From a virus, in the UHGV virus genome UHGV-0206950: 42,472 bases of DNA. One strand, given 5' to 3'. The notes under the pieces were generated by a model. It made no database searches, was not told the origin of the DNA, and saw nothing but the letters and a program-made list of their open reading frames with translations. Positions 3,340 through 24,586 of the stretch are shown here, one piece after another. Numbering within the stretch: the first letter of the stretch is position 1; each line of letters begins with the position of its first letter. A program made the translations under genes and the position numbers.

Positions 3340-3588
3340 ATGACCGGGCAATCGGATTATCTCCCGCCCGGTCTCCCGCTCAATCGTGCTAAATGGCCAC
3401 AAGAGTGCCAACTCAAGGAGCATTACGACATGCGCGCCGCCGCGCTCGTTCGTCAGCTCTATGAGCGGAAAGTTACTCGCCAGACGGTTATTCAGCACAT
3501 TGACGCGACGCCGGAGAGTTATCGGGATTTTTTCAGAGAACGTTTGAATTACTGGCGCCAGCAGCACGAAGGGGGAAAGAGTGAATAA
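3340..3588 (+). CDS. hypothetical protein (82 aa)
   Basis: ORF with AAGG SD-like sequence; tightly packed between neighbouring genes. Confidence 0.4.
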   Translation: MTGQSDYLPPGLPLNRAKWPQECQLKEHYDMRAAALVRQLYERKVTRQTVIQHIDATPESYRDFFRERLNYWRQQHEGGKSE

Positions 3589-4183
3589 AAAGTACACGTT
3601 AATTTATGCGGATCCTCCCTGGGAATACAGAGACAAAGCAGCGGATGGTGACCGCGGCGCCGGGTTTAAATATCCGGTGATGAATGTTCTAGATATTTGC
3701 CGTCTTCCTGTGTGGGATCTCGCTGCTGAAAGTAGCCTGCTGGCTATGTGGTGGGTTCCGACGCAGCCGCTTGAAGCACTGAAGGTAGTTGAGGCATGGG
3801 GGTTTCGTTTGATGACAATGAAAGGCTTTACCTGGAACAAGTGCGGAAGCCGTCAGACAGAAAAATTGGTAATGGGAATGGGGCATATGACCCGTGCTAA
3901 TAGTGAAGATTGCCTTTTTGCAATTAAGGGGAAACTCCCTGAGCGTATTGATGCTGGGATTATCCAGTCATTTACAGCGCCTCGTCTGGCTCATTCACAA
4001 AAACCTGACTTTGTGCGTGAAAAGTTAGTTCAACTGTTGGGTGACGTACCACGTATAGAACTATTTGCGCGCCAGTCATCACATGGCTTTGACGTATGGG
4101 GAAATGAGTGTGGTTCGTCTGATGTAATGCTGCTGCCAGGAATAGCTGAATTTATCAAGGAAGATAGGGAGAGTGCTGCATGA
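3581..4183 (+). CDS. N6-adenine DNA methyltransferase, MT-A70 family
   Basis: N-terminal YTLIYADPPWEY (DPPW catalytic motif typical of MT-A70 family phage adenine MTases); GTG start after GGGGGA. Confidence 0.75.
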   Translation: MNKKYTLIYADPPWEYRDKAADGDRGAGFKYPVMNVLDICRLPVWDLAAESSLLAMWWVPTQPLEALKVVEAWGFRLMTMKGFTWNKCGSRQTEKLVMGMGHMTRANSEDCLFAIKGKLPERIDAGIIQSFTAPRLAHSQKPDFVREKLVQLLGDVPRIELFARQSSHGFDVWGNECGSSDVMLLPGIAEFIKEDRESAA

Positions 4184-4935
4184 CAAAGCCAGCAACAATT
4201 CTTGATATGTGCTGCGGCTCCCGCATGTTCTGGTTCAACAAGCATGACACCCGTGCTGTGTTCACTGATATCCGCACCGAAGAGCACGAGCTGTGCGACG
4301 GTCGCCGCCTGGTTATCAGTCCCGACCTGATTGCCGACTTTCGTTCACTGCCGTTCGCTGATTCTTCTTTTCCGGTTGTGGTGTTTGACCCGCCACATCT
4401 GGAGCGTGTGGGCCAGTCTGCCTGGATGGGTAAAAAATACGGGAGACTGAACAAAAAAACGTGGCGTTCTGATTTGCGAACAGGATTCAAAGAAGCTTTC
4501 CGCGTGCTGCGGCCACACGGCGTGCTCATCTTCAAATGGAACGAAACGCAGATACCGGTTAGCCAGATTCTGGCGCTTACAGATGTGAAACCTGCAATTG
4601 GCCAGCGTACCGGAAAGAACGACAAAACCCACTGGATAATATTTACGAAAGAAACTGGTGACGATACCTGCAATCTCAAAAGCGCCCTCCTTGATAGCGC
4701 ATACCGTAGATTACATGAGCTGGAGAGTTTGCTTCTTCCCGAGGTGCCAGAAACAGTCTGGCCAGTTGAGGTCAAGATGATTTTTGAGCAAATAAACAAC
4801 GCCGAGAGTCTGCCTGAACATCACCAAAGGCGACTAAAGCATCATATCAATCGCATGTGGTTAGAAAAAATGTCAGCACAGGAGATTGTGATTGCTGCTC
4901 GTTCGCTAATGAATGCAATGGAGAAATACGCGTGA
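4180..4935 (+). CDS. class I SAM-dependent (probable DNA) methyltransferase with DPPH motif plus about 90-aa C-terminal extension
   Basis: motif I-like ILDMCCGSRMFW followed by VVVFDPPHL (motif IV-like); ATGA overlap with upstream MTase. Confidence 0.55.
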   Translation: MTKPATILDMCCGSRMFWFNKHDTRAVFTDIRTEEHELCDGRRLVISPDLIADFRSLPFADSSFPVVVFDPPHLERVGQSAWMGKKYGRLNKKTWRSDLRTGFKEAFRVLRPHGVLIFKWNETQIPVSQILALTDVKPAIGQRTGKNDKTHWIIFTKETGDDTCNLKSALLDSAYRRLHELESLLLPEVPETVWPVEVKMIFEQINNAESLPEHHQRRLKHHINRMWLEKMSAQEIVIAARSLMNAMEKYA

Positions 4936-7067
4936 GAGAAATCATCGTTGATAATTTTGCTGGTGGTGGCGGTGCGTCAACCGGTATTGAAATGGCGATC
5001 GGTCGCAGTGTTGATATAGCAATCAACCACGATGAGAACGCTGTGGCGATGCACACTACGAATCACCCTGATACGCTGCACTATTGCGAGTCTGTGTATG
5101 AGGTTCGCCCAAAGGTAGCAACTGCGGGGCGCCCGGTGGCGCTGGCGTGGTTTTCTCCTGATTGCCGCCACTTTTCTAAAGCCAAGGGCGCTAAACCTGT
5201 CGAGAAAGCTATCCGTGGACTGGCATGGGTTGTGCTGCGTTGGGGGCTGGATGTTGAACCACGGGTAATGAAACTGGAGAACGTCGAAGAGTTTAAAACG
5301 TGGGGACCATTATTACGTGAAATGCCATTCATCAGTCACGCGGATCGCTTTCTTGATGAATTTATCGGACCACCTGAGCCAGTTGAACAGCGTCCCGACC
5401 CAGCTCGAATTGGTGAAACTTTTAACGCCTTTGTCGCAATGCTTACAACCGGCATTTCTGCAGATCATCCGGCGCTGGCAGAATGCTGTGAGTTTCTGAA
5501 TATTTCGCTTGATAGCGATGACGCCGCGCGGCTGGTAAAAGGCCTGGGCTATGTAGTTGAGTATCGCGAACTGCGCGCCTGTGACTATGGCGCACCGACA
5601 ATCAGAAAGCGTTTCTTCATGGTTATGCGACGTGATGGGAAGCCGATTGTATGGCCGGAACCAACGCATGGGGATCCGAAATCACCTGCGGTTCAGGCTG
5701 GCAGGCTGGCGCCATGGCGTACAGCTGCGGAGTGTATCGACTGGTCAATTCCGGCTCTATCGATATTCGACCGCAAAAAGCCGCTTGCAGAAAATACCCT
5801 GAAGCGGATCGCGCGCGGCATACAGCGCTTTGTTATCGACAGTGCGTCGCCGTTCATCGTGAAGTGCAATCACACCAGCACCAAAACGAGTTACGACTGT
5901 TTCCGAGGTCAAGCGCTGGGCGAACCTTTGCAGACCATTACCAAAACCCACGGCTACGCGTTAGCCGTTCCACATCTGACAAAGTTCCGTACTGGCGCAA
6001 CCGGGCAGCCCGTTACCGAACCGGTACCGACAGTTACCGCTGGCACGTCAAAACGCCCGGGCGGGAATGGGCATGCACTCGGGATTGTTGAGGCTGCACT
6101 GACACCATTCCTGGCGGGTAATGGTGGTAGTGAATACCAGGCTAAACCGCGCCCGCTGGATAAACCTGCTCACACCATTTTGAAGCAATCCCGCGCCTGT
6201 CTGGTTGCGCCAGTGATAGCCCGCCAGTTTGGGGCCAGCATCGGCCACCGGGCAGATGAACCGAGCGCAACTATCACCGCTGGTGGTGGTGGTAAATCTC
6301 AACTGGTAACACCAACGTTGATCCAGATGGGCTATGGGGAACGTCCCGGACAAGAACCGCGTGTGCTGCGACTGGATAACCCGCTGGGTACCGTTACTGC
6401 AGGTGGGAATAAATTCGCGACGGTGAGCGCGTTCCTGGCAAAGCATTACGGCGGCAACTATACGGGCCCGGGCGTCGGTTTAGATGAGCCTGTTCATTCA
6501 GTTACCACGGTTGATCACCACGCAGTTGTCGCTGCGCATTTGATGGTCAATAACACCGGACATCCCGGCGGCACACTGGACAATCCGGCTCATACTGTAA
6601 CGACAGGAAATCATCATGCAGTGGTTGCCTCCCATCTGGTGAAACTGCGAGGTACCTGCCGGGATGGGCAGCCAACCAGTGAACCAGTGCCAACGGTGAC
6701 GGCGGGCGGGCTGCACGTAGGGGAGGTGAAAACCACTCTTGCGGTCGATGAGTACGACGAATATCGCGCTCAGCAGACGCTTGAGTTTCTGCGGGAATAC
6801 TGCGGCGAGGATTGCGACGGGCTGGTGACAGTTGGCGGCATAACTTACCGCATCGTTGATATTGGCATGCGTATGCTGCAACCGCACGAGCTATACCGTG
6901 CGCAGGGCTTCCCGGAGTGGTACATCATCGACCAGGACTATCGGGGCAAGAAGTATGCGAAAGACAAGCAGGTTGCGCGATGCGGTAACGCCGTGCCACC
7001 GCCGTTTGCAGAGGCGCTGGTGAAGGCTAATTTGCCTGAATTATGCGTAAGCAGGGAGGCCGCGTAA
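4932..7067 (+). CDS. DNA (cytosine-5) methyltransferase with greatly expanded variable region containing about 7 tandem TRD-like repeats
   Basis: GTG start overlapping upstream TGA (GTGA); motif I IVDNFAGGGGAS, motif IV-like FSPDCRHFSKA, motif VI KLENVEEF, motif X CGNAVPPPF at C-terminus; repeats PVPTVTAGTS / PSATITAGGGG / PLGTVTAGGNK / PVHSVTTVDHH / PAHTVTTGNHH / PVPTVTAGGLH between motifs VI and X. Confidence 0.75.
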   Translation: MREIIVDNFAGGGGASTGIEMAIGRSVDIAINHDENAVAMHTTNHPDTLHYCESVYEVRPKVATAGRPVALAWFSPDCRHFSKAKGAKPVEKAIRGLAWVVLRWGLDVEPRVMKLENVEEFKTWGPLLREMPFISHADRFLDEFIGPPEPVEQRPDPARIGETFNAFVAMLTTGISADHPALAECCEFLNISLDSDDAARLVKGLGYVVEYRELRACDYGAPTIRKRFFMVMRRDGKPIVWPEPTHGDPKSPAVQAGRLAPWRTAAECIDWSIPALSIFDRKKPLAENTLKRIARGIQRFVIDSASPFIVKCNHTSTKTSYDCFRGQALGEPLQTITKTHGYALAVPHLTKFRTGATGQPVTEPVPTVTAGTSKRPGGNGHALGIVEAALTPFLAGNGGSEYQAKPRPLDKPAHTILKQSRACLVAPVIARQFGASIGHRADEPSATITAGGGGKSQLVTPTLIQMGYGERPGQEPRVLRLDNPLGTVTAGGNKFATVSAFLAKHYGGNYTGPGVGLDEPVHSVTTVDHHAVVAAHLMVNNTGHPGGTLDNPAHTVTTGNHHAVVASHLVKLRGTCRDGQPTSEPVPTVTAGGLHVGEVKTTLAVDEYDEYRAQQTLEFLREYCGEDCDGLVTVGGITYRIVDIGMRMLQPHELYRAQGFPEWYIIDQDYRGKKYAKDKQVARCGNAVPPPFAEALVKANLPELCVSREAA

Positions 7068-7405
7068 TGGCAAAATCAGCAGCAGAGCGCAAAGCAGCAC
7101 AGCGTGCCCGCCAGTCTGCTGCTGGTGGGCGGAAACTTGAACTGGTGCTGGATGCGCAGGAACTGGAAATGCTTGCCCGAAATTGCGCAGATCGTCGACC
7201 AGGCCGCACACCGTATGAAATGGGGGAATATATAGCGCTTCTCATTCGCCAGGATGATGCGCGTGTAAAGGGGCAGATAAAATCAATCCGCGCAAATAAA
7301 TGCAACAAGTGCGGTGACTCATTACCGGTTAAAGCATGCCCATGCGCAGGTGATTCTCAGTGCTGGGTTACACACGGATGGCATGTAGTAAAACTGACAA
7401 CGTGA
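7067..7405 (+). CDS. hypothetical basic/Cys-rich protein (112 aa)
   Basis: TAATG overlap with MTase stop, AGGGAGG SD; C-terminal CNKCGDSLPVKACPCAGDSQC cluster. Confidence 0.45.
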   Translation: MAKSAAERKAAQRARQSAAGGRKLELVLDAQELEMLARNCADRRPGRTPYEMGEYIALLIRQDDARVKGQIKSIRANKCNKCGDSLPVKACPCAGDSQCWVTHGWHVVKLTT

Positions 7406-11597: not shown

Positions 11598-11658
11598 GGC
11601 ATTACAGCAGGCATTCTATGAGTGTCTGCGATAATGACAAACAGGCAGGTGATCAGAT

Positions 11659-12630
11659 ATGGCAAAACCGGACTGGGGAGCACTGCAACACCAGTTCCTC
11701 GCCGAGCATGCTAAATCCGGTATTTCCCCCAAAGACTGGTGTGAAGCGCAGGGACTGAATTACACATCTGCCCGCCGCTACATAAAAAAACCGACTGCGC
11801 AAAATGCGCAACAATCTGCGCAGAAAAAAATGCGCACTGCGCAGGCAAGAAAAAGCGCAGAGAAACTTCTTGATAGTGAACTAACTCCCCAACAGAAACG
11901 CTTCGTTGCTGAATATCTCATAGACCAGAACGCGACAGCCGCAGCCGAGCGCGCTGGTTACAGTGACGCAAGTTATGGTAGGCAACTCCTAACAGTACCT
12001 CACGTTGCGCAGGCAATTGCGCAGCAGCAAAGAGATTCACTTGTGCGCACTTTGGCGAGTGCAGATGAAGTGCTCGAAAAGATGTGGCAGCTCGCTACGT
12101 TCGACGCTAACGAAATCTCGCAATATCGCCGGGGATGTTGCCGTTACTGCTGGGGCTTTGGTCATAACTACCAATGGCGTGATGTTATCGAGTTCGAAGA
12201 GAGGGGAGCGGAGGCAAAAGCCAAAAAAGGGAAAGATCCGGACGATGCTGGCGGATATGGCTACAACCACAACCGTGAGCCTAATCCTGATTGCCCTCGC
12301 TGCAATGGTGATGGAGTTGGCAGGCCGTATTTTTCTGACACAACCAAATTATCCTCAATAGCCCGCCTGGCATACTCCGGTACCAAGCTGGTGAAAGGTG
12401 GAATCGAGATATCGACCATCAGCCGCGAAAAAATGTTTGAAGCGATAATGCGGCGTCTGGGCCTGACTGAATCCGAACTGGCGCAACGGCTGCTGGATCT
12501 GGAAATCCGAAAACGCACCGCCGAAGCCGAACGTCTGGAACAGGAAGTTGAGCTTAAGCGTAAGGGCAAGGGCAAAGACGACGAGCCGACAGTGGTCATT
12601 AAACTGGTGAATTCCCCTGATGGCGACTGA
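11659..12630 (+). CDS. terminase small subunit (Terminase_2-type)
   Basis: LTPQQKRFVAEYLIDQNATAAAERAGYS motif typical of this family; position before large subunit. Confidence 0.7.
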   Translation: MAKPDWGALQHQFLAEHAKSGISPKDWCEAQGLNYTSARRYIKKPTAQNAQQSAQKKMRTAQARKSAEKLLDSELTPQQKRFVAEYLIDQNATAAAERAGYSDASYGRQLLTVPHVAQAIAQQQRDSLVRTLASADEVLEKMWQLATFDANEISQYRRGCCRYCWGFGHNYQWRDVIEFEERGAEAKAKKGKDPDDAGGYGYNHNREPNPDCPRCNGDGVGRPYFSDTTKLSSIARLAYSGTKLVKGGIEISTISREKMFEAIMRRLGLTESELAQRLLDLEIRKRTAEAERLEQEVELKRKGKGKDDEPTVVIKLVNSPDGD

Positions 12631-13891
12631 ACATGTTATTGAGTTCCTGCCGTTCCATGCAGGGCAAAAGAAAATTTATCGCTCACCTGCAAAACGAAAA
12701 GTTATCCGTGCCGGACGTCGTTACGGCAAGACAACGATGTTGGAACAGGCTGGAGGGAACTGGGCAGCACGACAGATGCGTGTAGGCTGGTTTGCACCGT
12801 CTTATAAAATTCTGCTGCCGTCGTTTAAAGCTATACGGGACCTGTTAAAGCCAATCACGGTTAGTTCCAGTAAGACCGATGCGATTATCGAAACCATTGG
12901 TGGGGGGCAGGTCGAGTTCTGGACGCTGGATAACCCTGATGCTGGTCGATCCCGTAAATATCACAAAGTCATCATCGATGAAGGCAGCCTGGTAAAAAAG
13001 GGCATGCGTGATATCTGGGAACAGGCAATAGAGCCGACGTTGCTCGACTTTGACGGCGATGCAGTCATGGCCGGTACGCCGAAAGGCGTTGATGACGAGA
13101 ATTTTTTCTATCAGGCCTGTAACGATAAATCGATGGGCTGGGAGGAACATCACGCACCGACCGCTGCCAACCCGACTATTAATCCGGCTGCGCTGGCGCG
13201 AATTATTGATGGTCGCCCGCCGCTGGTGGTTCAGCAGGAATATAACGCTGAATTTGTGGACTGGCGCGGGCAGAACTTTTTCAAACTCGACTGGATTCTG
13301 GAAGATGGCGCGCCGGTCGACTACCCGTTTTCCTGCGATACGGTTTATGGCGTTGTTGACTGTGCGCAGAAGGGGAAGCTCCAGAACGATGGCTCCGCAT
13401 GCATCTGGTTTGCGCTGGATAACCTGCCATCGCCACACCTCGTTATTCTGGACTGGGACATTATCCAAATTGACGGATATTTCCTGAAAGACATTGTTCC
13501 TCAGTGGGAAGGAAAGGCCAAACAGCTTAGCGAAATATGCCGCGCGCGTATGGGGACTACAGGACTGTTCATTGAGGACAAGGCAACCGGAATCACCCTG
13601 TTACAGCAGGGCGCTAATGAGGGGTGGAACGTACACCCTATTGACAGTGATTTAACGTCACTTCCTAAAGAGTCTCGCGCCATCAACATTTCTGGTTATG
13701 TGGCGTCCGGGAAAGTACGCATTTCTAAATACGCCTTTGACAAAATCGTTGAGTACAAGCAATCGAAGAAAAATCATCTTCTGACGCAGGTGCTCAAGTT
13801 CATCATCGGTGAAGAAGACCAGGACGACGATCTGTTTGACTGCTTTAACTACGGCGTCGCGCTTGGCCTTGGTAACGGAGAGGGGTTCTGA
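12620..13891 (+). CDS. terminase large subunit
   Basis: Walker A AGRRYGKTT; overlaps terS end and portal start (TGATG). Confidence 0.75.
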   Translation: MATEHVIEFLPFHAGQKKIYRSPAKRKVIRAGRRYGKTTMLEQAGGNWAARQMRVGWFAPSYKILLPSFKAIRDLLKPITVSSSKTDAIIETIGGGQVEFWTLDNPDAGRSRKYHKVIIDEGSLVKKGMRDIWEQAIEPTLLDFDGDAVMAGTPKGVDDENFFYQACNDKSMGWEEHHAPTAANPTINPAALARIIDGRPPLVVQQEYNAEFVDWRGQNFFKLDWILEDGAPVDYPFSCDTVYGVVDCAQKGKLQNDGSACIWFALDNLPSPHLVILDWDIIQIDGYFLKDIVPQWEGKAKQLSEICRARMGTTGLFIEDKATGITLLQQGANEGWNVHPIDSDLTSLPKESRAINISGYVASGKVRISKYAFDKIVEYKQSKKNHLLTQVLKFIIGEEDQDDDLFDCFNYGVALGLGNGEGF

Positions 13892-15330
13892 TGCAGGACG
13901 ACGACGATATTTGCATGGGCAGCAATGCTGGCGTCCTCAGTAAGATTCTGGAGGGCGGAAGCATTGAACCCGGCGCGCAGGCAGGGTACGAGCTCTGCAA
14001 GCTGATTTATTTGTTTCACCCGCTGGGCGGAAAGATGGTAGATCGCCCTATAAAACTGGCGATGTCAGAACCACGAACTGTACATGTTACTCGTGGACCT
14101 GAAAGACGCCTGCGTGAAGCTTTCGAGCGCGAGTGGAAAGCGATTAAAGCCGATCGCATCATTGCCAACACTGCGCGCCAGTCAAGAATTTACGGTGTAG
14201 GCGCTGTGGTGATGCTCATTGACGGCGAGCCTACGAACGAAGCCGCTGGGTTTGACACACTGTATAAAAAATCCATCACCTTCAACGTGCTGGATCCGAT
14301 GAATACAGCCGGTTCTGTGGTGCTCAATCAGGACCCTAATTCTGCTGATTTCCAGAAGGTGGGAAGCGTGACTGCGGCGGGGCAACCTTACCATCATAGC
14401 CGCTGCTGCGTGATGATGAACGAGGATCCTATTTATCTGGCCTACACTTCGTCGTCCTTCGGTTTTGCCGGGCGCAGCGTTTATCAGCGTGCGCTTTATC
14501 CGCTGAAATCATTCATTCAGTCGATGCGCGCTGATGACATGGTAACGATTAAAGCCGGGCTGCTGGTGGCGTTTATCAAGCAGGCCAGTTCTATCGTCAA
14601 CAATATGATGCAGAAAATGTCCGGCATTAAGCGCTGGATGTTGAAGCGAGGCGGAAACGGCGATGTGTTACAGGTCGGTGAGAATGACAAAATTGAATCG
14701 CTCGATATGCAGAACCTCGAAAAGCCGCTGGATACTGCCCGCAATCACATTCTGGCAAATATCGCTACGGCGGCGGACATGCCCGCCATTCTGCTTAACA
14801 GCGAAACATTCACACGCGGATTTGGCGAAGGTACCGAGGATGCAAAAGCGGTAGCGCAATATATCGATGACGTTCGCAAAGACCTTGAGCCGCTTTACGA
14901 TTTCTTTGTGCGCATCGTGCAATACCGCGCCTGGTCTCGCGAATTTTTTGAGGCATTGAAAAACGACATGCCAGAGTACGAAAAAATCACCTGGGAGGCG
15001 GCATTCAATTCCTGGGTGAACAATTTCGACTACGTCTGGCCGTCAGCGTTGAAAGAGCCTGAAAGCGAAAAGGTCAAAGTTGACGAAACCCGCTTTAAGG
15101 CGATTACTGAGATGCTGAACGTGCTGCTGCCTCAGCTCACTAAAGACCCGCAAAACAGGGCAACGCTCATCAAATGGGGCTGTGAAAACGCCAACATGAA
15201 CGAAAATCTGTTTGCTGATCGGCTTGAGCTGGATTACGAACTGCTGGAGCAATGCCCTCCGGACCCTCCTCCAACAGGCAACGATAACGAGGATAACTAC
15301 GATGGCCTCATTCGTGAAAGAGCTGCGTGA
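13891..15330 (+). CDS. portal protein
   Basis: 479 aa, gene order terL-portal-head morphogenesis; acidic C-terminus. Confidence 0.55.
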   Translation: MQDDDDICMGSNAGVLSKILEGGSIEPGAQAGYELCKLIYLFHPLGGKMVDRPIKLAMSEPRTVHVTRGPERRLREAFEREWKAIKADRIIANTARQSRIYGVGAVVMLIDGEPTNEAAGFDTLYKKSITFNVLDPMNTAGSVVLNQDPNSADFQKVGSVTAAGQPYHHSRCCVMMNEDPIYLAYTSSSFGFAGRSVYQRALYPLKSFIQSMRADDMVTIKAGLLVAFIKQASSIVNNMMQKMSGIKRWMLKRGGNGDVLQVGENDKIESLDMQNLEKPLDTARNHILANIATAADMPAILLNSETFTRGFGEGTEDAKAVAQYIDDVRKDLEPLYDFFVRIVQYRAWSREFFEALKNDMPEYEKITWEAAFNSWVNNFDYVWPSALKEPESEKVKVDETRFKAITEMLNVLLPQLTKDPQNRATLIKWGCENANMNENLFADRLELDYELLEQCPPDPPPTGNDNEDNYDGLIRERAA

Positions 15331-16177
15331 CGCCATTAAACATTTTCTGGAATACGGTTACAGCAGCGAAGAAAGCCTGATCATGTGGACTGAGCGCCTG
15401 CGCAATGCCACGGAAAACAAAGTTGATGGAAATGACCTATACCGATACGTCAGCCGCCGGCTAACTGCAGCCTATGACCTGGAGATTGGACGGGAAAAAG
15501 CGCTGAAACGCCATATAGGTGTGAGTCGCTTCACTCTGAATTACCTTGAACCGAAACTTCGTGCTGAGCTGGACCGCCGGATCATGGCATCCGCCGATCT
15601 GATAAAACTCAACCGTACGCAGGCCATCGATAAAACCATTCAGCGCTTCAGCGGGTGGGCAACCAGTATCCCGCCGATAAGCGAAATGAGCGCCGGCCTG
15701 TCGGCTTCTTCCCGAACCGGGGTAATTGCTACCAGTCAGCACATCGCAAAATCCGCCCGTCAGATTGATTTCGAGCAGCGTCGGGTGATGGTCGATCAGA
15801 CGCATAAGCTTATCGCCAACATAGATAACATCATTGCCACTGAGGGTGGGGCAATTGCTGCTGTCTGGCACAGCCACTGGCGACAACCAAATTATGATTT
15901 TCGTGAACCTCATAAGGAACGAGATTTGCTGGTGTACGCCATTCGTGGCAACTGGGCGATAAAAAAGGGATTTATGAAGGTTGGTCCGGCGGGCTATCTC
16001 GATGAAATCACGCAACCGGGCGAAGAAGTCTTTTGTCGTTGCTACCTGACGTACATCTATAACGTCCGAAGCCTGCCTGATGAAATGAAAACCGAAAAAT
16101 GGCGGAAATTCATTGAAGGCAACAAATCAGTCGGTCGTCGTTCTGCAAACTTCGAGACCATAAAAAACGGAGGATAA
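15302..16177 (+). CDS. head morphogenesis / minor head protein, Mu F / SPP1 gp7-like (291 aa)
   Basis: position after portal; C-terminal conserved block with FCRCYLTY resembling the Mu-F-domain CRC motif (from memory). Confidence 0.45.
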   Translation: MASFVKELRDAIKHFLEYGYSSEESLIMWTERLRNATENKVDGNDLYRYVSRRLTAAYDLEIGREKALKRHIGVSRFTLNYLEPKLRAELDRRIMASADLIKLNRTQAIDKTIQRFSGWATSIPPISEMSAGLSASSRTGVIATSQHIAKSARQIDFEQRRVMVDQTHKLIANIDNIIATEGGAIAAVWHSHWRQPNYDFREPHKERDLLVYAIRGNWAIKKGFMKVGPAGYLDEITQPGEEVFCRCYLTYIYNVRSLPDEMKTEKWRKFIEGNKSVGRRSANFETIKNGG

Positions 16178-17752
16178 GTGAAAACCTACGCTGCCGGGAT
16201 CCTGTTTAAGTCTGGCGGGAAAATATTTCTGGTTAAGCGTGGGGATGATGGTTCGTGGGCGGTACCGGGCGGAAAACTCGAAGAGGGGGAAACGCCGGAA
16301 TTCGCGGCAAGGCGTGAAGTTCTGGAGGAGTGCGGGGTTGATTATTCCGCACCGCTGACGCCTCATACCCTGATTGATGGCTATGTTACTTACCTTGCTG
16401 ATGATGCTGAGCAATTCGACGCGGTTTTGAACGATGAAAATCAGGCCTGTGGCTGGTTTTCTCCAGATGAACTTCCCGATCCGCTACACCCAGGTATGGT
16501 GGCGATGCTTGATGCCGAACCACTCAATGAAATGGATGTTGCCGGGCTTATTGCTGACGGGCAACTCACATCCCCGCAATTTTTCAGAAATATGTACCTG
16601 TGGGCGCTGCGTATCACCGGAACGGGTGTTACATGGCGATCCAAATTCAGGCAATACGCCTACCGCTCCCCTGAAAATTACCTGACGGATGAATTTCTCG
16701 CCCGGTGTTCTGGCTTGCCCGTTATCTGGTGGCATCCAGAAAAAAACACGCTGAATAGTGAAGAATTCGCCTCAAGGACGATCGGGACGATTACGTTTGC
16801 CTGGATCAAAGGTGATGAGGTGTGGGGAATGGCCCGCATTTATGACACCGACGCCGCCGCGAATCTTTCAACGCGGCAACTCAGTACATCCCCCACGGTG
16901 ACGGGCGGCGATGACGTTCTGATCGACGTCGATGGCGAACCGCTACTGCTGGAAGGAACTCCGGTTTTACTGGATCACCTGGCCATTTGTGAGCAGGGCG
17001 TCTGGGACAAGCTAGGGGATCCGACGGGAGTTAAATCCGACACACTTTTGAACGAGGTCCAGAAAATGGATGAAGAAAAAGTATTAGCACTCATTAACCA
17101 GGCGCTGGACGCTCGCGAAGCCCGCGCAAAGGCCGATGCTGAGGAAAAAGCGAAAGCAGATGCCGAAGCAGCAGAAAAGGCGAAAGCTGATGAAGATGCT
17201 GCCCGTCTCAAGGAAGAGGAAGAAAAAACGAAAGCTGACGCTGATGCGAAAGCCAAGGCAGATGCAGAAGCCGAAGAAAAGGCGAAAGCTGATGCTGAAC
17301 TGGAAAAAATCCGGGCGGACATGGAAGAAATGAAAAGCCGTGTACCTCAGGAACTCAGCGACGAAGAACGTAACGAAATCGCTGATACCCAGTGCAAAGC
17401 GGACAGTGTATTTGCTTCTTTCGGAGAGCGAGCACCGCAACCAATGGCGGGTGAACGTGCGATGCCATATCGCCGCCGCATCATGACACGCCTGCAAAAA
17501 TATTCTCCTGATTATAAAGAAGTGGATCTGCATGCCATTGCAGACAGTCAACTCCTGAGCATTGCGGAGAAAAAAATCTATGCCGATGCGCAGGCATCAG
17601 CGGCCTCCAGTCTGGAACCCGGCGCAGGGTTGCGTGAAGTCATTCGCACCGACGCCACCGGGCGCCGTATCAGCACCTTTATCGGTGACCCGTCTGCGAC
17701 GTGGGCTCCGTTCCAGGCAGTCAGCCGTAAGCTCGCTGGCATCAACCAGTAA
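16178..17752 (+). CDS. fusion protein: N-terminal NUDIX hydrolase domain (about 110 aa) + head scaffolding-like domain with A/K/E/D-rich coiled-coil repeats
   Basis: canonical Nudix box [24 protein letters not shown] (Gx5Ex7REUxEExGU); GTG start after GGAGG; central [65 protein letters not shown] repeats typical of scaffold proteins. Confidence 0.6.
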
Positions 17753-17772
17753 TCAACCGGAGAACAATAAAC

Positions 17773-18645
17773 ATGTCGAGCATTCTGTCAGTAAACCCAA
17801 TGCAGACCACAAATGCGCGTGGTACTTTCTACACGAAATCCGATGGTCTCATTCAGGGTGTTGCGCTGGATGATCCAGCTGCGCGCTATGCATTGGCATC
17901 CGGTACCCTCTCCAGCGATGAAGTAAAACCTCTCTGGGGCGGTCTGGCTGTCAATGAACTGGTGCCGGGAGCATCTTCAGCACCACGAGGCAGCGTTATC
18001 AAACGAGCTACCACTCTTTCACAACTGGTGGGGTTCTCTGTATTCAACCAGGCACACAATGGCCTGACCACTCCGCAATCGCCAGTGCCTCTTTTCCTCA
18101 GCAACATGAGTGTGTCGTTCTATCGTCTGGGTTCCGGGATGCGTGTTCCGGTCAAAGCCTCTGATGCCGTGATCTCTCTGGCCAGCGCGGGGATTTCCGT
18201 TAATCAGCCGTTGGTCTGGAACTTTGCTGAGGATTGCCTCGATGTATTCAGCACAGTAGCGGCAGATGTGGCGACCACGGAAATCACATGGACTTCTCCT
18301 ACTTCCAATGCTTCAGGGTTCGCTACCGCGACGACTGCCAGCGCTCATGGACTGAAAGTGGGCGGTTATGTGGATATTACTGGTGCGGCTCCGGCTGCAT
18401 ATAACGGTATCGTTCAGGTGCTCAGTGTTCCTACGGCAACCACATTCACATTTACCCCGGTTTCAGTGCCTACAGGCAATGCAACCACTCAGGGAACGGT
18501 AGGGGCGGCAAAAGTGCAGGACGTCGCCCTTCCGGTAAAAATCATCGAAATGCAGATGGGTAACAGCAAAACCGTTTCTTACGATTCGGCGACGGGCTTT
18601 GCTACCTGGAACGACAGCGGAAACGCTGCGGTAATTCTGCTGTAA
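17773..18645 (+). CDS. putative head decoration / structural protein (290 aa)
   Basis: position between scaffold-like gene and putative major capsid gene (lambda D-like position); Thr/Ala/Ser-rich beta-type composition. Confidence 0.35.
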   Translation: MSSILSVNPMQTTNARGTFYTKSDGLIQGVALDDPAARYALASGTLSSDEVKPLWGGLAVNELVPGASSAPRGSVIKRATTLSQLVGFSVFNQAHNGLTTPQSPVPLFLSNMSVSFYRLGSGMRVPVKASDAVISLASAGISVNQPLVWNFAEDCLDVFSTVAADVATTEITWTSPTSNASGFATATTASAHGLKVGGYVDITGAAPAAYNGIVQVLSVPTATTFTFTPVSVPTGNATTQGTVGAAKVQDVALPVKIIEMQMGNSKTVSYDSATGFATWNDSGNAAVILL

Positions 18646-18662
18646 TCAGGAGAGGCTAAGAG

Positions 18663-19694
18663 ATGCCAGCTATTACACCCGCTTATCAAATTGTAAATCC
18701 GTCGTACATCATGCCGGAAATGATCCTGTCCTATCAGCAGGCATCTGGCGCATTTTCCGTTATGGCCAGTGGTAACCCGCTGGTTCGTCTGTCTGACGGT
18801 GACCAGTACGTTTACATGAAACGTCTGGATATTCGTACTCAGGTTACCTCCAGCCAGTCTGGGAATGCCAACCAGTTGCCATCCGTTGCACTGGATGCAC
18901 GAATGGTTAGTACGCCAACGTATATGTTCCGCGCCCGCGCCATTTACGATCATCATGATATGGCCGCTGCGGGGAACTGGGGGATTGCATTGCCGGAAGC
19001 TCAGCGTCTTGGTACCCGGCAGGCAATTTTCCAGCAACTGCGAAATGCGCTGCTGTACGGCATGAATCCAGCTGGCGGTGAAGGTGTTCTGAATACCAAC
19101 GGTGCGACCACTATCAGTCTTCCGGCAGACAGTGGCGGAAATACTACCGTCCTGACTTACGATCATGGCGAAATGGCTGTATTCCTGCTGGCACAGATTC
19201 AGGCAATCCGCACCCGCACTATGCAAATGGGCCGTCCGTCACGAATGGTTATTCTTGGCCCTCAGCGTACGCTGGGTACGATGGAGATGCAGCAGATTGT
19301 TCAGTTGACCAGTTACCAGCGTCCTGGCGGCGGTACTGCGACAGTTAAAGGGACCGTTGCTGGTGTTGCAGACGATGCAGACTGCGGCATTGACTGGGTT
19401 TATGACGATACACTAATCGGTGCTGGGGCAAATGGTACTGATGCAGTGATTATCGCCATGCCAGAAGTTGAACGGCCGGAGGTGAACGCGAAAATCAACA
19501 CTAACGAATTCGCGAAACTTAGCCCGTCGTTGGAAGCGACATCACTGATGCTGTGTGACATGGCCGCACCGCGAGAAATCCCGACTCCGATTGCGGGTGG
19601 GGCGATCGACGTACTTTCCGAACTGCGCTCCACTTCCGGCTGGGTGCTTCGTCCTGAGGCGCTGACCATCATTTCGATGAAATACAGCAATTAA
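18663..19694 (+). CDS. putative major capsid protein (343 aa)
   Basis: size and position (lambda E-like), strong SD GGAGAGG. Confidence 0.5.
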   Translation: MPAITPAYQIVNPSYIMPEMILSYQQASGAFSVMASGNPLVRLSDGDQYVYMKRLDIRTQVTSSQSGNANQLPSVALDARMVSTPTYMFRARAIYDHHDMAAAGNWGIALPEAQRLGTRQAIFQQLRNALLYGMNPAGGEGVLNTNGATTISLPADSGGNTTVLTYDHGEMAVFLLAQIQAIRTRTMQMGRPSRMVILGPQRTLGTMEMQQIVQLTSYQRPGGGTATVKGTVAGVADDADCGIDWVYDDTLIGAGANGTDAVIIAMPEVERPEVNAKINTNEFAKLSPSLEATSLMLCDMAAPREIPTPIAGGAIDVLSELRSTSGWVLRPEALTIISMKYSN

Positions 19695-19759
19695 TTTTCC
19701 CTCGCAGATTTCCCTGTGTACCTGGTGGTACGCGGGGATTTTTTTAACCAGGAGTACAC

Positions 19760-20245
19760 ATGAAACTGTATATCGCCAATACCACCAAGCAGCGTCACGA
19801 TTTCGCCTATCGTAAACCTGAAACAGGTCGTCTCGTGTATCACCCGATTAATGCTGGTTCACAGGCTGTCGTTATTGACGGAACACGCGCAGAGATCGAC
19901 CTCATTATTCAGCAGCACGCGGAGTACGGCCTGATTGACGCGACAAAAATTGACCAGAACCGTATTTATATCGGGCTGTGTTACAGCATTGATAAACCCG
20001 TGGCGTCAAAAGTGATCGAAAAAGCCATGCGGGATAACGATGGTCACCTGAATCGTGCAGCTCATGACCGTCGGCAGGCGTCAGTACTGGCAACAGACAG
20101 CGTGCTCAGTGAACAAGACAACGGCTATCGGGGAGAGCTGGAGGTGAGCGCAGAGCAACGCCTGAACGCTACGGATGATAAAGATGAAACCGAATTCGTT
20201 GACGAAACACTAGCGGTGAGTGCGGGATCCAAAAAGAAAAAATAA
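19760..20245 (+). CDS. hypothetical head-tail joining region protein (161 aa)
   Basis: GGAG SD, position after capsid gene, acidic/K-rich tail. Confidence 0.4.
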   Translation: MKLYIANTTKQRHDFAYRKPETGRLVYHPINAGSQAVVIDGTRAEIDLIIQQHAEYGLIDATKIDQNRIYIGLCYSIDKPVASKVIEKAMRDNDGHLNRAAHDRRQASVLATDSVLSEQDNGYRGELEVSAEQRLNATDDKDETEFVDETLAVSAGSKKKK

Positions 20246-20257
20246 GTGAGGAACGCC

Positions 20258-20683
20258 ATGCCTGATCTGGCCGGATTTATCCTGTTTATTCGCAATACGA
20301 TGGGTGTAAATATCGACGATCTACCTGATGATGCACCGTCCATTTACCTTACCTGGTCAATGTCACTGGACTGGGTGAACCGCCAGATTGCGTGTATCAG
20401 CCCAGTTCTTTATTCGCAGGCGGTCTATAACCTCGCGGCTTCCTTCCTGATTAATTTCGGTCCTGAGGATGTTTTCGGCCCTGTACGTGAAAAACTGGGC
20501 ATTAATAATTTCACTGCTGGCGTTATCAGTGCTTCCGCTGATGAGTCAACCAGCCAGACCCGGGTAGTCAGCGACGCGCTAAAAAATCTTTCTCTTGCTG
20601 ACCTCCAACAACTCAAAGATCCATACGGTCGCTGGTACCTGGCAATCGCTCAGCAATATGGTGATTTGTGGGGGCTTACATGA
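20258..20683 (+). CDS. putative head-tail connector/adaptor protein
   Basis: ATG with GAGGAA SD 4 nt upstream; position. Confidence 0.4.
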   Translation: MPDLAGFILFIRNTMGVNIDDLPDDAPSIYLTWSMSLDWVNRQIACISPVLYSQAVYNLAASFLINFGPEDVFGPVREKLGINNFTAGVISASADESTSQTRVVSDALKNLSLADLQQLKDPYGRWYLAIAQQYGDLWGLT

Positions 20684-21111
20684 AACTTCACCTGGGCGTG
20701 ATGGATATACCCTACGAAAACGAGAATACGACCACCGGAGATGTGGCCGAAATTCTTGAGGGAAAATATCACATCATGCAGACGTTCTTTGATCGGCATG
20801 GTGAGGAGATTGCTCAACTGATGAGTGATGACCTTGCTGCAGGTCTTGAGAACTTGCTGGCAGGTGCGCCGCCTCCATCCGATCCTTTTGCGGAATCAAT
20901 GTCGCAGGTTCATCACCTTTTTGTCGCTTTTCTCGATAACGCCGAAATGAACGGTACCGAAGGTGTCCCGACAGCCCGGGCGCTTGAAGGAATCAGCAAG
21001 CGTTTCAAAAACAAGAAAGGGGAGCAGCGCCCCTCTTTCATCGATACGGGAATGTTTCAGGCCTCTATGCGGGCCTGGGTAAGCGGGGTGTTGAATGCCT
21101 TCCCTCAGTGA
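20680..21111 (+). CDS. putative head-tail joining protein
   Basis: ATGA overlap with upstream gene; position. Confidence 0.4.
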   Translation: MKLHLGVMDIPYENENTTTGDVAEILEGKYHIMQTFFDRHGEEIAQLMSDDLAAGLENLLAGAPPPSDPFAESMSQVHHLFVAFLDNAEMNGTEGVPTARALEGISKRFKNKKGEQRPSFIDTGMFQASMRAWVSGVLNAFPQ

Positions 21112-22033: not shown

Positions 22034-22038
22034 TCTAA

Positions 22039-23433: not shown

Positions 23434-23436
23434 AAA

Positions 23437-24452: not shown

Positions 24453-24586
24453 ACTGGGCCTCTAACGAGGGGTTCAGGGACGTTGTAAGGGAAATAGCTG
24501 GCGAGGAATACGCCAGCCCATCCCAGTTCAGGCAGCGCTTTATCCTCTCCGCCTTAAAAGAAAGGGGTCATTTCAATGGCAGCTAA
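23865..24586 (+). CDS. tail assembly chaperone, -1 frameshift fusion product (about 239 aa; shift at GTTTTTTTTA 24255-24264)
   Basis: slippery T TTT TTT heptamer in zero frame (codons gtt ttt ttt atg); -1 frame has no stop from 24239 to 24586 and ends overlapping tape-measure start. Confidence 0.5.
24256..24263 (+). promoter_or_regulatory. programmed -1 ribosomal frameshift slippery run (T8)
   Basis: read directly; conserved chaperone G/GT-type arrangement. Confidence 0.5.

What the first reader, a model, noticed from the sequence alone, without database searches (positions are those of the whole stretch)
4932..7067. C5-cytosine methyltransferase with about seven tandem TRD-like repeats (possible multispecific MTase)
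All catalytic C5-MTase motifs are present in one 711-aa ORF: FAGGGG (motif I), PDC..FS (IV), ENV (VI) and GNAVPP (X). The region between ENV and GNAV is about 500 aa instead of about 150. It contains at least seven spaced copies of P-x-[HPA]-T-[VI]-T-[AT]-G(G) (PVPTVTAGTS, PSATITAGGGG, PLGTVTAGGNK, PVHSVTTVDHH, PAHTVTTGNHH, PVPTVTAGGLH, PAHTILKQ). This resembles the T-L..GG core of C5-MTase target-recognition domains, such as M.HhaI TLSAYGGG. The layout recalls Bacillus phage multispecific MTases (SPR, phi3T, rho11s) with tandem TRDs. That architecture is rarely described in enterobacterial phages.
Basis: partly seen in the sequence, partly recalled or inferred. Interest (0 to 1): 0.7.

Follow-up and report, generated by a model that had tools for sequence, protein, structure and literature searches.

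The report
Prophage cytosine methylase with eight recognition-like modules
A prophage gene encodes a DNA cytosine-C5 methyltransferase with eight tandem ~33-residue modules that each repeat the signature of a target-recognition domain; it probably lets one enzyme shield phage DNA from many restriction enzymes, and it belongs to a very large phage family whose repeat layout I found described nowhere.

Summary
ORF 4932-7067 (+), 711 aa, has C5-MTase motifs I, IV, VI, VIII, IX and X. It carries eight, not seven, copies of [D/E]-x-P-x-x-T-[VI]-T spaced 32-48 aa apart (0.15 expected by chance).

An HMM finds 1-12 such modules per protein (mode 8) in 377 relatives. Close homologs differ by whole-module indels. 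The array is as conserved as the catalytic domain. Two loop segments flanking the invariant P-x-x-T define the module types.

In most relatives the last module sits just before motif IX. It aligns with the canonical TRD "TL" motif of a monospecific enzyme and with the TRD core shared by the four Bacillus phage multispecific enzymes.

The protein is 40% identical to Paracoccus phage Pyei1_p05. A paper puts that protein ~69% identical to two P. aminophilus prophage MTases that partly protected DNA against 16 of 28 restriction enzymes, reported as "relaxed specificity".

Best reading: an orphan multispecific anti-restriction C5-MTase with tandem mini-TRDs (confidence 0.58). Still unproven: AlphaFold2 gave no confident fold for the array (two attempts), and similarity to Bacillus TRDs is weak. 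A new variant of a known kind; moderately high interest.

The parts
4932..7067 (+). Complete C5-cytosine DNA methyltransferase gene (711 aa; GTG start overlapping the upstream stop)
   Evidence: fold match of the confident part of the model to DNMT1, MET1, 3g7u, M.HaeIII and M.HhaI
4932..5837 (+). N-terminal catalytic part (aa 1-302): motif I FAGGGG (4956-4973), motif IV SPDCRHFS (5154-5177), motif VI ENV (5277-5285), motif VIII region (about 5589-5624), and a conserved pre-array segment (aa 241-302)
   Evidence: sequence; AF2 block-mean pLDDT mostly 74-98, with dips at aa 81-90, 131-150 and after 270; invariant columns
5316..5381 (+). Variable 21-22 aa insertion in the catalytic domain (aa 129-150), absent in many 85-97% identical homologs
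5895..5996 (+). Module 1 (type C; aa 322-355; GEPLQTITKTHGYALAV).
5991..6101 (+). Module 2 (type E; aa 354-390; TEPVPTVTAGTSKRPGGNGHALGIV), with a longer loop after T-V-T
6135..6227 (+). Module 3 (type I; aa 402-432; DKPAHTILKQSRACLVAPV). The whole 35-aa unit is absent in homologs P0038, P0088 and P0091
6237..6338 (+). Module 4 (type G; aa 436-469; DEPSATITAGGGGKSQLVTPTLIQMGYG). One of the two most conserved module cores among orthologs
6357..6452 (+). Module 5 (type B; aa 476-507; DNPLGTVTAGGNKFATVSAFLAKHYG). Widespread type, found in 182 of 377 family proteins
6459..6560 (+). Module 6 (type F; aa 510-543; DEPVHSVTTVDHHAVVAAHL). Best local BLASTP match to the SPR TRD core EPAFTVNTIDRHGV (7 of 14 identical, E 0.09)
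6555..6650 (+). Module 7 (type H; aa 542-573; DNPAHTVTTGNHHAVVASHL). Paralog of module 6; one of the pair is absent in P0051, P0084, P0088, P0093 and P0110
6654..6740 (+). Module 8 (type A; aa 575-603; SEPVPTVTAGGLHVGEV). Most widespread type, found in 289 of 377 proteins
6744..6818 (+). Acidic helical insert (aa 605-629; VDEYDEYRAQQTLEFLREYCGEDCD). It stands where most relatives have the TL half of a ninth, terminal module (type D); the D strand GLVTV is retained
6864..7001 (+). C-terminal catalytic part: motif IX (GMRMLQPHELYRAQGFP, 6864-6914) and motif X (GNAVPP, 6984-7001)
   Evidence: AF2 block-mean pLDDT 63-93 over aa 641-700
3581..4183 (+). Upstream MT-A70 family methyltransferase (200 aa, DPPW), first of three MTase genes with overlapping stops and starts. 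Context, not part of the enzyme
4180..4935 (+). Second upstream SAM-dependent DNA MTase-like gene (251 aa, FDPPH). Its stop overlaps the C5-MTase start codon

Best explanation
The gene encodes an orphan, phage-borne, multispecific DNA cytosine-C5 methyltransferase.

One catalytic core (motifs I-VIII at the N-terminus, IX-X at the C-terminus) is interrupted between motifs VIII and IX by eight tandem mini target-recognition modules of about 32-48 aa. Each module has:
- a type-specific loop;
- the invariant P-x-x-T-[VI]-T strand, the counterpart of the TRD "TL" motif that sits against the flipped cytosine in M.HhaI (T250);
- a second type-specific loop;
- a conserved hydrophobic strand plus a glycine-containing linker.

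Inferred mechanism. Modules take turns docking beside the active site, and each presents its own two loops to the major groove. One polypeptide then methylates several unrelated short sequences.

Inferred biology. The gene lies in the delayed-early region of a lambdoid prophage, between the replication genes and the Q antiterminator, behind two other MTase genes. It would therefore be made after induction or infection. It would pre-methylate progeny DNA so that it survives the type II restriction systems of the next host.

What is shown: the anatomy, the family-wide modularity, the conservation, and homology to phage enzymes that a paper relates to tested ones giving broad protection. What is inferred: one module equals one specificity, alternate docking, and the timing of expression.
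For: (1) Complete C5-MTase. The motifs are in the sequence. Pfam E 1.7e-19. The model matches the C5-MTase fold.

(2) Eight in-frame signature copies against 0.15 expected. The spacing equals that of TL motifs in SPR and rho11s, 30-48 aa.

(3) Modularity across the family.
- A module HMM finds 2,789 modules in 377 relatives, 1-12 per protein.
- Protein length is about 445 + 28 aa per module.
- Close homologs differ by exact single-module indels.
- Architectures such as CEIGBFHA, CEGBFHA, MJQBKAD and CNBPAD show gain, loss and hybrid modules.

(4) Constraint. Among 82 colinear orthologs the array varies 0.062 per site, against 0.027-0.069 in the catalytic segments.

(5) Column entropy.
- P11 and T14 are invariant.
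- Columns 1-6, 12-13 and 17-22 differ strongly between module types and little within a type.
- These columns flank the TL strand. From my memory of the M.HhaI structure, its two recognition loops lie in the same places.

(6) Link to a bona fide TRD.
- The family's terminal module D plus motifs IX-X aligns continuously with the TL region of the monospecific M_MAGs_10 (hhalign prob 72%, E 3.5e-5).
- It also aligns with the SPR TRD core DDGEPAFTVNTIDRHGVAV (prob 84%, E 7e-6). From memory of the Trautner work this is the GGCC domain.
- An HMM built only from the window's eight modules scores D modules at a median of 14.3 bits. Shuffled controls score -0.8, maximum 7.3.

(7) Experiments on relatives.
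- JCM7686_0772 and JCM7686_2655 partly protected plasmid DNA against AluI, BglI, Bme1390I, BsuRI, CaiI, EcoO109I, EcoRII, Hin6I, HpaII, HpyF10VI, MspI, NciI, PauI, PvuII, TaiI and XhoI (PMC3925955).
- They gave no protection at CGCG, TCGCGA, ACGCGT, GGNNCC, CCWWGG, CCATGG, CCGCTC and others. No single short degenerate motif obviously explains that pattern.
- Pyei1_p05, reported ~69% identical to those enzymes, has 8 modules. It is 40% identical to the window protein over the full length (E 2e-161).
- ARM81mr_p29, reported as having relaxed specificity, has 5 modules and is 46-50% identical.

(8) Context. No nuclease was recognisable among the neighbours scanned against Pfam. The gene is third in a run of three MTase genes with overlapping stops and starts.
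Against: - AlphaFold2 gave no confident structure for the array. pLDDT was 25-42 for aa 304-639 with 118 sequences. It was 30-55 in a compact 5-module homolog with 95 sequences. TRD-like folding is therefore not shown.
- Module-to-Bacillus-TRD similarity is in register but not significant. BLASTP against SPR has a best E of 0.09.
- The module profile matches nothing solved.
- Module order is largely colinear across the family. A single integrated repeat domain could also produce that.
- The window subfamily has lost the TL half of the terminal module D, the module that best matches canonical TRDs.
- Protection in the tested homologs was only partial, and their authors read it as relaxed specificity.
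- I did not hold the sequence of the tested Paracoccus proteins. The link rests on identities reported in the papers.
- Nothing was measured for this protein.
Confidence: 0.58

Rival explanations
1. Composite array with relaxed specificity. The eight modules fold together, or wrap DNA together, as one extended beta-hairpin repeat domain. That domain holds DNA loosely, so the enzyme methylates a short degenerate context, as the authors of the homolog studies proposed. Modules would tune affinity or processivity rather than each encoding a separate target.
For: - Homologs were reported as having relaxed substrate specificity, with only partial protection.
- Module order is colinear and three module types (C/M, A, D) are near-universal.
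- A regular conserved scaffold (hydrophobic strand plus K-x-Y-G linker) recurs in every unit.
- The C-part of a module co-varies with the next module.
Against: - The protected and unprotected sites in the homolog do not fit one short motif. GGCC, GCGC, AGCT, CCGG, CCWGG, ACGT and CTCGAG were protected. CGCG, CCATGG, CCWWGG, GGNNCC and CCGCTC were not.
- Every module keeps its own invariant P-x-x-T. From my knowledge of M.HhaI, that motif matters only next to the catalytic pocket.
- Single modules are lost or gained among otherwise >85% identical proteins.
- The loop positions are type-specific.
- AlphaFold2 predicts no solenoid or other integrated fold.
Confidence: 0.24
2. Mostly relic modules. 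Only one or two modules, for example the last one beside motif IX, work as the TRD. The others are inactive pseudo-TRDs or spacers left by past duplications, like the silent domains described in rho11s. The enzyme would then have one or two specificities.
For: - rho11s carries two TL-motif cores (VSPTLTTMGEGH and LSPTLTTNKGEG) beyond the two targets I recall for that enzyme. From memory these are silent pseudodomains, and rho11s MGEGH differs by one residue from the MGGGH of phi3T and H2.
- The canonical position of a TRD TL motif is directly before motif IX.
Against: - The array is under purifying selection as strong as that on the catalytic domain. The inner modules G and B are the most conserved of all, at 0.015-0.02 variability.
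- Module types are conserved across distant taxa.
- Homologs protect many unrelated sites.
Confidence: 0.13
3. The gene is inactive, or acts on something other than double-stranded DNA cytosines, for example RNA or single-stranded DNA. The repeats would then be unrelated to DNA sequence recognition.
For: - One relative, Phi2LM21_p23, showed no activity in E. coli.
- AlphaFold2 sees the array as unstructured.
Against: - The ORF is intact and all catalytic motifs are conserved.
- Orthologs are strongly conserved in hundreds of genomes.
- Tested homologs methylate plasmid DNA in vivo.
Confidence: 0.05

Closest known systems
Multispecific C5-MTases of Bacillus temperate phages (M.SPRI, M.Phi3TI, M.Rho11sI, M.H2I)
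   Same: - One catalytic core with a tandem array of short modules between motifs VIII and IX.
- Each module has its own T-[LIV] dipeptide, and TL-to-TL spacing is 30-48 aa.
- Orphan enzymes of temperate phages.
- Related enzymes differ in module content: 2-4 TL-motif cores among the four proteins.
- The family's terminal module aligns with the SPR TRD core.
   Different: - No significant overall sequence similarity; best BLASTP E is 0.09.
- Different catalytic lineage: SPDC-x-HFS rather than PCQ-x-FS in motif IV.
- Eight modules here, up to 12 in relatives, against 2-4 TL-motif cores in the Bacillus enzymes.
- A regular ~33-aa periodic scaffold.
- Hosts are mainly Proteobacteria.
- No module has been assigned to a target.
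Large prophage m5C MTases with 'relaxed specificity' (P. aminophilus JCM7686_0772 and _2655; Aeromonas phage ARM81mr_p29 and ARM81ld_p31; Paracoccus phage Pyei1_p05)
   Same: - Same protein family: 40% identity over the full length to Pyei1_p05 and 46-50% to ARM81mr_p29.
- The same module HMM finds 8 and 5 modules in them.
- They are also encoded next to phage replication genes.
- The P. aminophilus pair gave broad partial protection from restriction enzymes; the ARM81 enzymes are cited as having relaxed specificity.
   Different: - Different module composition, and the terminal D module is intact in them.
- The papers describe the phenotype. In the passages I read they do not mention the tandem TRD-like repeats, and the word 'multispecific' is absent from one of them.
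- The window protein itself has not been tested.
Monospecific bacterial C5-MTases (M.HhaI, M.HaeIII; PF00145)
   Same: - Same catalytic fold and motif set.
- A single TRD with one P-x-x-T-[LIV] or TL motif before motif IX. This corresponds to the family's terminal module.
   Different: - One TRD of roughly 80-150 aa, against eight ~33-48 aa modules.
- The gap between motifs VIII and IX is ~415 aa here, against roughly 100 aa in M.HhaI (sequence recalled from memory).
3g7u, putative C5-MTase of E. coli prophage CP-933R (the best solved-structure sequence match)
   Same: A prophage-encoded C5-MTase. The N-terminal motifs align at E 5.6e-9, and it ranks second in the fold search.
   Different: It is 376 aa with an ordinary variable region and no module array.

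Membership tests
DNA cytosine-C5 methyltransferase (PF00145) | SAM-binding motif I (F-x-G-x-G) and the catalytic Cys of motif IV | tested here: met
   FAGGGG at aa 9-14. SPDCRHFS at aa 75-82, a P-D-C variant of the P-C dipeptide. Both are invariant in the family alignments.
DNA cytosine-C5 methyltransferase (PF00145) | Motifs VI (ENV), VIII (R-x-R), IX and X (GN-x-V) in canonical order; profile score above the curated cutoff; C5-MTase fold | tested here: met
   ENV at 116-118, TIRKRF at 223-228, RMLQPHE at 647-653, GNAVPP at 685-690. Pfam 70.8 bits against a cutoff of 22. Foldseek matches to DNMT1, MET1, 3g7u, HaeIII and HhaI at E 1e-8 to 1e-6. TIGR00675 scored below its cutoff, 45.6 against 100.65.
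Multispecific C5-MTase (Bacillus phage SPR/phi3T type) | Two or more tandem, non-overlapping TRD units between motifs VIII and IX, each with its own T-[LIV] core | tested here: met
   Eight units with P-x-x-T-[VI]-[TL], spaced 32-48 aa. Bacillus enzymes show a spacing of 30-48 aa.
Multispecific C5-MTase (Bacillus phage SPR/phi3T type) | Each TRD independently confers one DNA target; deleting one removes one specificity only | not testable with these tools
   Indirect evidence only. Natural single-module indels occur. Relatives protect many unrelated sites.
Multispecific C5-MTase (Bacillus phage SPR/phi3T type) | Sequence homology of the modules to characterised TRDs | tested here: inconclusive
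   The terminal family module D aligns with the SPR TRD core (hhalign prob 84%, E 7e-6) and with a monospecific TL region (prob 72%). The generic module HMM hits Bacillus TRD cores in register, but with i-Evalues of only 0.08-2. Whole-protein BLASTP against SPR is not significant.
Multispecific C5-MTase (Bacillus phage SPR/phi3T type) | Modules adopt a TRD-like fold that docks beside the catalytic pocket | tested here: inconclusive
   Two AlphaFold2 runs gave pLDDT 25-55 over the arrays. The module profile has no solved relative.
Large prophage m5C MTases with broad or relaxed protection (JCM7686_0772-like) | Full-length homology, including the variable region | tested here: met
   40% identity over aa 4-709 to Pyei1_p05 (E 2e-161), which is reported ~69% identical to JCM7686_0772. 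46-50% identity to ARM81mr_p29, and 38% to RR1-A gp60. The sequence of JCM7686_0772 itself was not retrieved.
Large prophage m5C MTases with broad or relaxed protection (JCM7686_0772-like) | Protection of DNA against many m5C-sensitive restriction enzymes | not testable with these tools
   Shown for the Paracoccus enzymes only.
Type II restriction-modification system | A cognate restriction endonuclease gene next to the MTase | tested here: not met
   Neighbours are a replication initiator, a DnaB helicase, two other MTases, DUF1367, YbcO and an antiterminator Q-like protein. None of the neighbours scanned matched a nuclease of a restriction type. ORF 7043-7405 (120 aa) has no family match.

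The most novel reading that the evidence does not exclude
A very large, phage-borne family of C5-MTases uses a ~33-aa cassette as a minimal, self-contained DNA-reading unit. The family has more than 2,500 clusters (50% identity) at E<=1e-30. The cassette has two specificity loops around an invariant P-x-x-T strand, which would make it smaller than any TRD I know of.

Arrays of 1-12 cassettes are reshuffled by recombination at the conserved strand between units. Each prophage would thus carry a combinatorial, evolvable set of methylation specificities served by one catalytic core. The 'relaxed specificity' reported for the Paracoccus and Aeromonas enzymes would then be the sum of many discrete specificities.
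Probability: 0.4. Interest if true: 0.78.

Novelty: new variant of a known kind. Interest (0 to 1): 0.62.

Why it matters
Multispecific cytosine methyltransferases are a classic finding, but to my knowledge they are described almost only for a handful of Bacillus phages. I know of no solved structure of one, and the question of how several TRDs share one catalytic pocket is still open as far as I know. A 2025 expert review still credits multi-TRD enzymes to Bacillus temperate phages only.

If the reading is right:
- The same strategy, in a different enzyme lineage and with two to three times more modules, is widespread in prophages of Enterobacteriaceae, Pseudomonas, Vibrio, Aeromonas, Rhodobacterales, Paenibacillus and others.
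- It would explain the puzzling "relaxed specificity" measured for the Paracoccus relatives and reported for the Aeromonas ones.
- It would supply hundreds of natural module-deletion and module-swap variants for mapping module to motif.
- It matters for phage host range, phage therapy and horizontal transfer, because prophages could pre-arm their DNA against many restriction systems.
- It could give compact, swappable DNA-reading cassettes for engineered methylation.

Tried and rejected
- AlphaFold2 on the window protein with a diverse 118-sequence alignment. The catalytic domain was confident and the array was not.
- AlphaFold2 on a compact 487-aa, 5-module homolog with 95 sequences. The array was again at low confidence. 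No beta-solenoid or other fold was predicted, so the fold question stays open.
- Fold search. Only the catalytic fold is informative.
- HMMER of the whole protein and of the terminal module plus C-terminus against PDB sequences. Only motifs I, VIII, IX and X align.
- HMMER of a 74-sequence module profile against PDB sequences. Chance hits only.
- Module HMM against SPR, rho11s, H2, phi3T and HhaI. It hits TL cores in register, but not significantly.
Only motifs IX-X aligned.
- DNA-level repeats. Only 21-nt stretches at ~71% identity. The duplications are therefore old. Slippage-type phase variation is rejected.
- Literature searches for an enterobacterial multi-TRD C5-MTase. None was found. 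The K. pneumoniae bisulfite methylome paper shows only Dcm and one R-M enzyme.
- Trautner 1996 (PMC450048) is not held. TRD sizes and specificities of the Bacillus enzymes therefore rest on my own knowledge plus the fetched sequences.
- A genome scan for the tested P. aminophilus genes returned 55 Rhodobacterales and other loci, but not that strain.
- A linked restriction enzyme (R-M system). Rejected from the neighbourhood.


Full report
**1. The observation**

The ORF list shows one long + strand frame ending at 7067.
- The start that fits the orthologs is the GTG at 4932. It overlaps the stop of the upstream gene (GTGA) and is preceded by GGAG.
- The product is 711 aa.
- It contains FAGGGG (aa 9-14), SPDCRHFS (75-82), ENV (116-118), PTIRKRF (222-228), RMLQPHELYRAQGFP (647-661) and GNAVPP (685-690).
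- Pfam PF00145 matches at E 1.7e-19 in three separated stretches.
- PHROG families annotated as DNA methyltransferase match strongly. One of them, phrog_23072, covers just aa 318-708.
- The confident parts of an AlphaFold2 model match DNMT1, MET1, 3g7u, M.HaeIII and M.HhaI.

- An eighth was missed: GEPLQTITKTHG at aa 332.
- PAHTILKQ is third in order.
- The P of P-x-x-[TS]-[VIL]-[TSL] falls at aa 332, 364, 412, 444, 484, 520, 552 and 585.
- That makes eight matches, against a mean of 0.15 and a maximum of 4 in 20,000 shuffles of the region.

**2. What the repeats are: anatomy**

I built an HMM from the eight modules and iterated it over relatives.
- The consensus is TGSRGQPLDEPLHTVTAGGRHALVVAALLKKYYG.
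- Across 37 module types the Pro and the first Thr are invariant.
- A second Thr, a hydrophobic strand (L-V-x-A-x-L) and flanking Gly residues are well conserved.
- Two segments vary strongly between types but little within a type: columns 1-6 upstream, and columns 17-22 just after T-V-T, plus 12-13.
- From my own knowledge of the M.HhaI structure, that is where its two recognition loops lie, on either side of T250-L251. T250 packs against the flipped base. A T250G mutant structure, 1fjx, appears among the fold hits.

**3. The family**

The protein is not an oddity.
- Word-indexed search returned thousands of near-identical prophage proteins from Citrobacter, Salmonella, Enterobacter, Klebsiella and E. 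coli, 644-714 aa long.
- An exhaustive HMMER scan of 1.84 billion cluster representatives gave 8,293 hits at E<=1e-3 and 2,541 at E<=1e-30. Among the best 150, lengths ran from 403 to 1,191 aa.
- A profile search added Bordetella, Achromobacter, Paenibacillus, Brevibacillus and others.
- tblastn with the repeat region alone hit 93 phage records. They include Pseudomonas F116 and phiC725A, Vibrio, Aeromonas, Rhizobium, Pectobacterium ZF40, Klebsiella, E. coli, Myxococcus Mx4 and Nostoc phages.

In the 377 proteins I held:
- The module HMM finds 2,789 modules, 1-12 per protein, with a mode of 8.
- Length fits about 445 + 28 aa per module.

Close homologs (85-97% identical) differ by exact unit indels:
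- The 35-aa unit holding module 3 is missing in P0038, P0088 and P0091.
- One of the paralogous modules 6 and 7 is missing in P0051, P0084, P0088, P0093 and P0110.

Typing the modules gives architecture strings.
- The window is CEIGBFHA, the same as 81 other proteins in the set (82 counting the window).
- Others are CEGBFHA, CEIGBPA, MJQBKAD, CNBPAD, CEZJBKFOAD and more.
- Order is broadly colinear. The first (C/M) and last (A, D) types are conserved and the inner ones vary.
- Hybrid types occur. P has the front of F and the back of H. K combines G and H. Q combines H and G.
- Their junction lies in the hydrophobic strand after the second loop. This points to unequal recombination between units.

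DNA repeats are only about 71% identical over 21 nt, so the duplications are old.

The array is not drifting. Among 82 colinear orthologs its per-site variability is 0.062, against 0.027-0.069 for the catalytic segments. Modules 4 and 5 are the most conserved stretches of all.

**4. Link to genuine TRDs**

Most family members end the array with a module D (GQxLDEPLHTVTTKDRFGLVT) directly before motif IX.
- A profile of D plus motifs IX-X aligns in one continuous stretch with the TL region (EWDKPSPTITT) of the monospecific M_MAGs_10 enzyme printed in PMC11954522 (hhalign prob 72%, E 3.5e-5).
- It also aligns with the SPR segment DDGEPAFTVNTIDRHGVAV (prob 84%, E 7e-6).
- All four Bacillus enzymes share that core. 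From memory of the Trautner work, it is the GGCC domain.
- An HMM made only from the window's modules recognises D modules at a median of 14.3 bits. Shuffles score -0.8, maximum 7.3.

This gives a chain from the canonical TL motif, to D, to the window's modules. The chain is weak in places:
- The generic module HMM hits the Bacillus cores (PTITT, PTLTTMGGG, EPAFTVNT) in register, but at i-Evalues of 0.08-2.
- Whole-protein BLASTP against SPR is not significant. Its best local hit is module 6 against the SPR core, 7 of 14 residues, E 0.09.
- With HhaI and HaeIII only motifs IX-X align.
- The module profile has no relative among solved structures.

The window subfamily has replaced the TL half of D with an acidic helix (VDEYDEYRAQQTLEFLREYCGEDCD) and kept the GLVTV strand. 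A related insert follows D in Pyei1_p05 and RR1-A gp60.

**5. Structure prediction**

Two AlphaFold2 runs were made.
- The window protein with 118 diverse sequences. The catalytic domain was mostly confident (pLDDT about 75-98), but aa 304-639 scored 25-42.
- A compact 487-aa homolog, P0229, whose variable region is essentially five modules, with 95 sequences. The array scored 30-55.

So the test of whether a module folds like a TRD is inconclusive. No solenoid or linker fold was predicted either. The cause could be real conformational freedom without DNA, or misalignment of repeats in the MSA.

**6. Experimental data on relatives**

PMC3925955 cloned two P. aminophilus prophage m5C MTases, JCM7686_0772 and JCM7686_2655.
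- It reports "relaxed substrate specificity".
- Its Additional file 8 lists partial protection against 16 of 28 enzymes: AGCT, CAGCTG, CAGN3CTG, GGCC, RGGNCCY, GCCN5GGC, GCGC, GCGCGC, CCGG (both HpaII and MspI), CCNGG, CCWGG, CCSGG, GCN7GC, ACGT and CTCGAG.
- Cleavage was complete at CGCG, TCGCGA, ACGCGT, GATC, GGNNCC, CCWWGG, CCATGG, CTAG, CATG, GANTC and CCGCTC.

PMC5537653 adds three points:
- These proteins of about 700 aa have homologs in Rhizobium phage RR1-A and in Gammaproteobacteria.
- Aeromonas phage ARM81mr_p29 and ARM81ld_p31 also have relaxed specificity.
- One relative, Phi2LM21_p23, was inactive in E. coli.

PMC6536676 puts Pyei1_p05 at ~69% identity to the Paracoccus enzymes.

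I fetched three of these relatives:

| Protein | Length | Modules | Identity to the window protein |
|---|---|---|---|
| Pyei1_p05 | 673 aa | 8 | 40% over the full length, E 2e-161 |
| ARM81mr_p29 | 565 aa | 5 | 46-50% |
| RR1-A gp60 | 697 aa | 9 | 38% |

No single short motif obviously explains the protected and unprotected sets. For example, GCGC is protected but CGCG is not, and CCGG and CCWGG are protected but CCATGG and CCWWGG are not. Several discrete specificities fit better. The number of site classes, roughly 7-9, is close to the module count.

In the passages I read, those papers do not mention the repeats. A 2025 review credits multi-TRD enzymes to Bacillus temperate phages only.

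**7. Context**

The gene is third in a run of three MTase genes with overlapping stops and starts: MT-A70 at 3581-4183, a SAM MTase at 4180-4935, and this one.
- Upstream are a replication initiator and a DnaB helicase.
- Downstream are DUF1367, YbcO and an antiterminator Q-like protein.
- No restriction enzyme was recognisable.
- This is the delayed-early region of a lambdoid prophage. Expression on induction is an inference.
- The window matches no deposited phage closely.

**8. Verdict**

The most likely reading, at about 0.58, is an orphan multispecific anti-restriction C5-MTase. Its eight modules would be mini-TRDs used alternately by one catalytic core.

The rivals are:
- a composite array that gives relaxed specificity (0.24);
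- mostly silent modules (0.13);
- an inactive or non-DNA enzyme (0.05).

It works like the Bacillus phage multispecific enzymes but is not a member of their sequence family. It is a member of the large prophage family whose Paracoccus members (and, by citation, Aeromonas members) were shown to protect broadly.

I rate it a new variant of a known kind. The enzyme class and the broad-protection phenotype are known. I found no description of the modular architecture, its scale (1-12 units, thousands of clusters) or its presence in enterobacterial prophages.

Noticed in passing
window 3581-4183, 4180-4935, 4932-7067: Three DNA methyltransferase genes in a row with overlapping stop and start codons: MT-A70 family with DPPW, a 251-aa SAM-MTase with FDPPH, and the C5-MTase. 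This looks like a translationally coupled anti-restriction cassette. Phage adenine MTases with no sequence specificity have been described, but whether the MT-A70 protein here is related to them was not tested.
   Followed up: partly
window 5316-5381 (aa 129-150 of the MTase): A 21-22 aa insertion (REMPFISHADRFLDEFIGPPEPV) after motif VI is present or absent among 85-97% identical homologs. It is the most variable segment (0.21 per site), and AlphaFold2 confidence is low there.
   Followed up: partly
relatives P0121-P0493 (module strings); window modules 6/7 at 6459-6650: Hybrid modules in relatives (front of one type joined to the back of another) place recombination junctions in the conserved hydrophobic strand after the second loop. 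A module's back half co-varies more with the next module's front than with its own (excess MI 1.8 against 1.2 bits; partly inflated by a 1-2 aa window overlap). The natural unit may be phase-shifted relative to the motif-centred module.
   Followed up: partly
window 6744-6818 (aa 605-629): An acidic helix (VDEYDEYRAQQTLEFLREYCGEDCD) replaces the TL half of the terminal module D that most of the family has. Related helical inserts occur after D in Pyei1_p05 and RR1-A gp60. Its function is unknown.
   Followed up: partly
window about 11600-24700: E. coli prophages similar to this stretch are annotated with NUDIX hydrolase and anti-CBASS Acb1 family proteins. The phage may therefore carry further anti-defence genes.
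   Followed up: no
Bacillus phage phi105, KY197768.1 29431-29757 (hit H52): An unannotated tblastn match (41% identity, two pieces) to the C-terminal half of the repeat array in a classic B. subtilis temperate phage. It could be a remnant or an unannotated gene of this family.
   Followed up: no
window 7043-7405: A 120-aa ORF with no Pfam match overlaps the 3' end of the MTase gene by 25 nt. It is basic at the N-terminus and Cys-rich at the C-terminus. Its function is unknown.
   Followed up: no
window 3340-3588: An 82-aa ORF with a weak, below-cutoff similarity to DNA polymerase III theta subunit (E 1.8e-4). It overlaps the start of the MT-A70 gene by 8 nt (3581-3588).
   Followed up: no
window 6001-7000: GC content is 58%, against about 49-50% for the window as a whole. 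This coincides with the Gly/Ala/Pro/Thr-rich module array.
   Followed up: no
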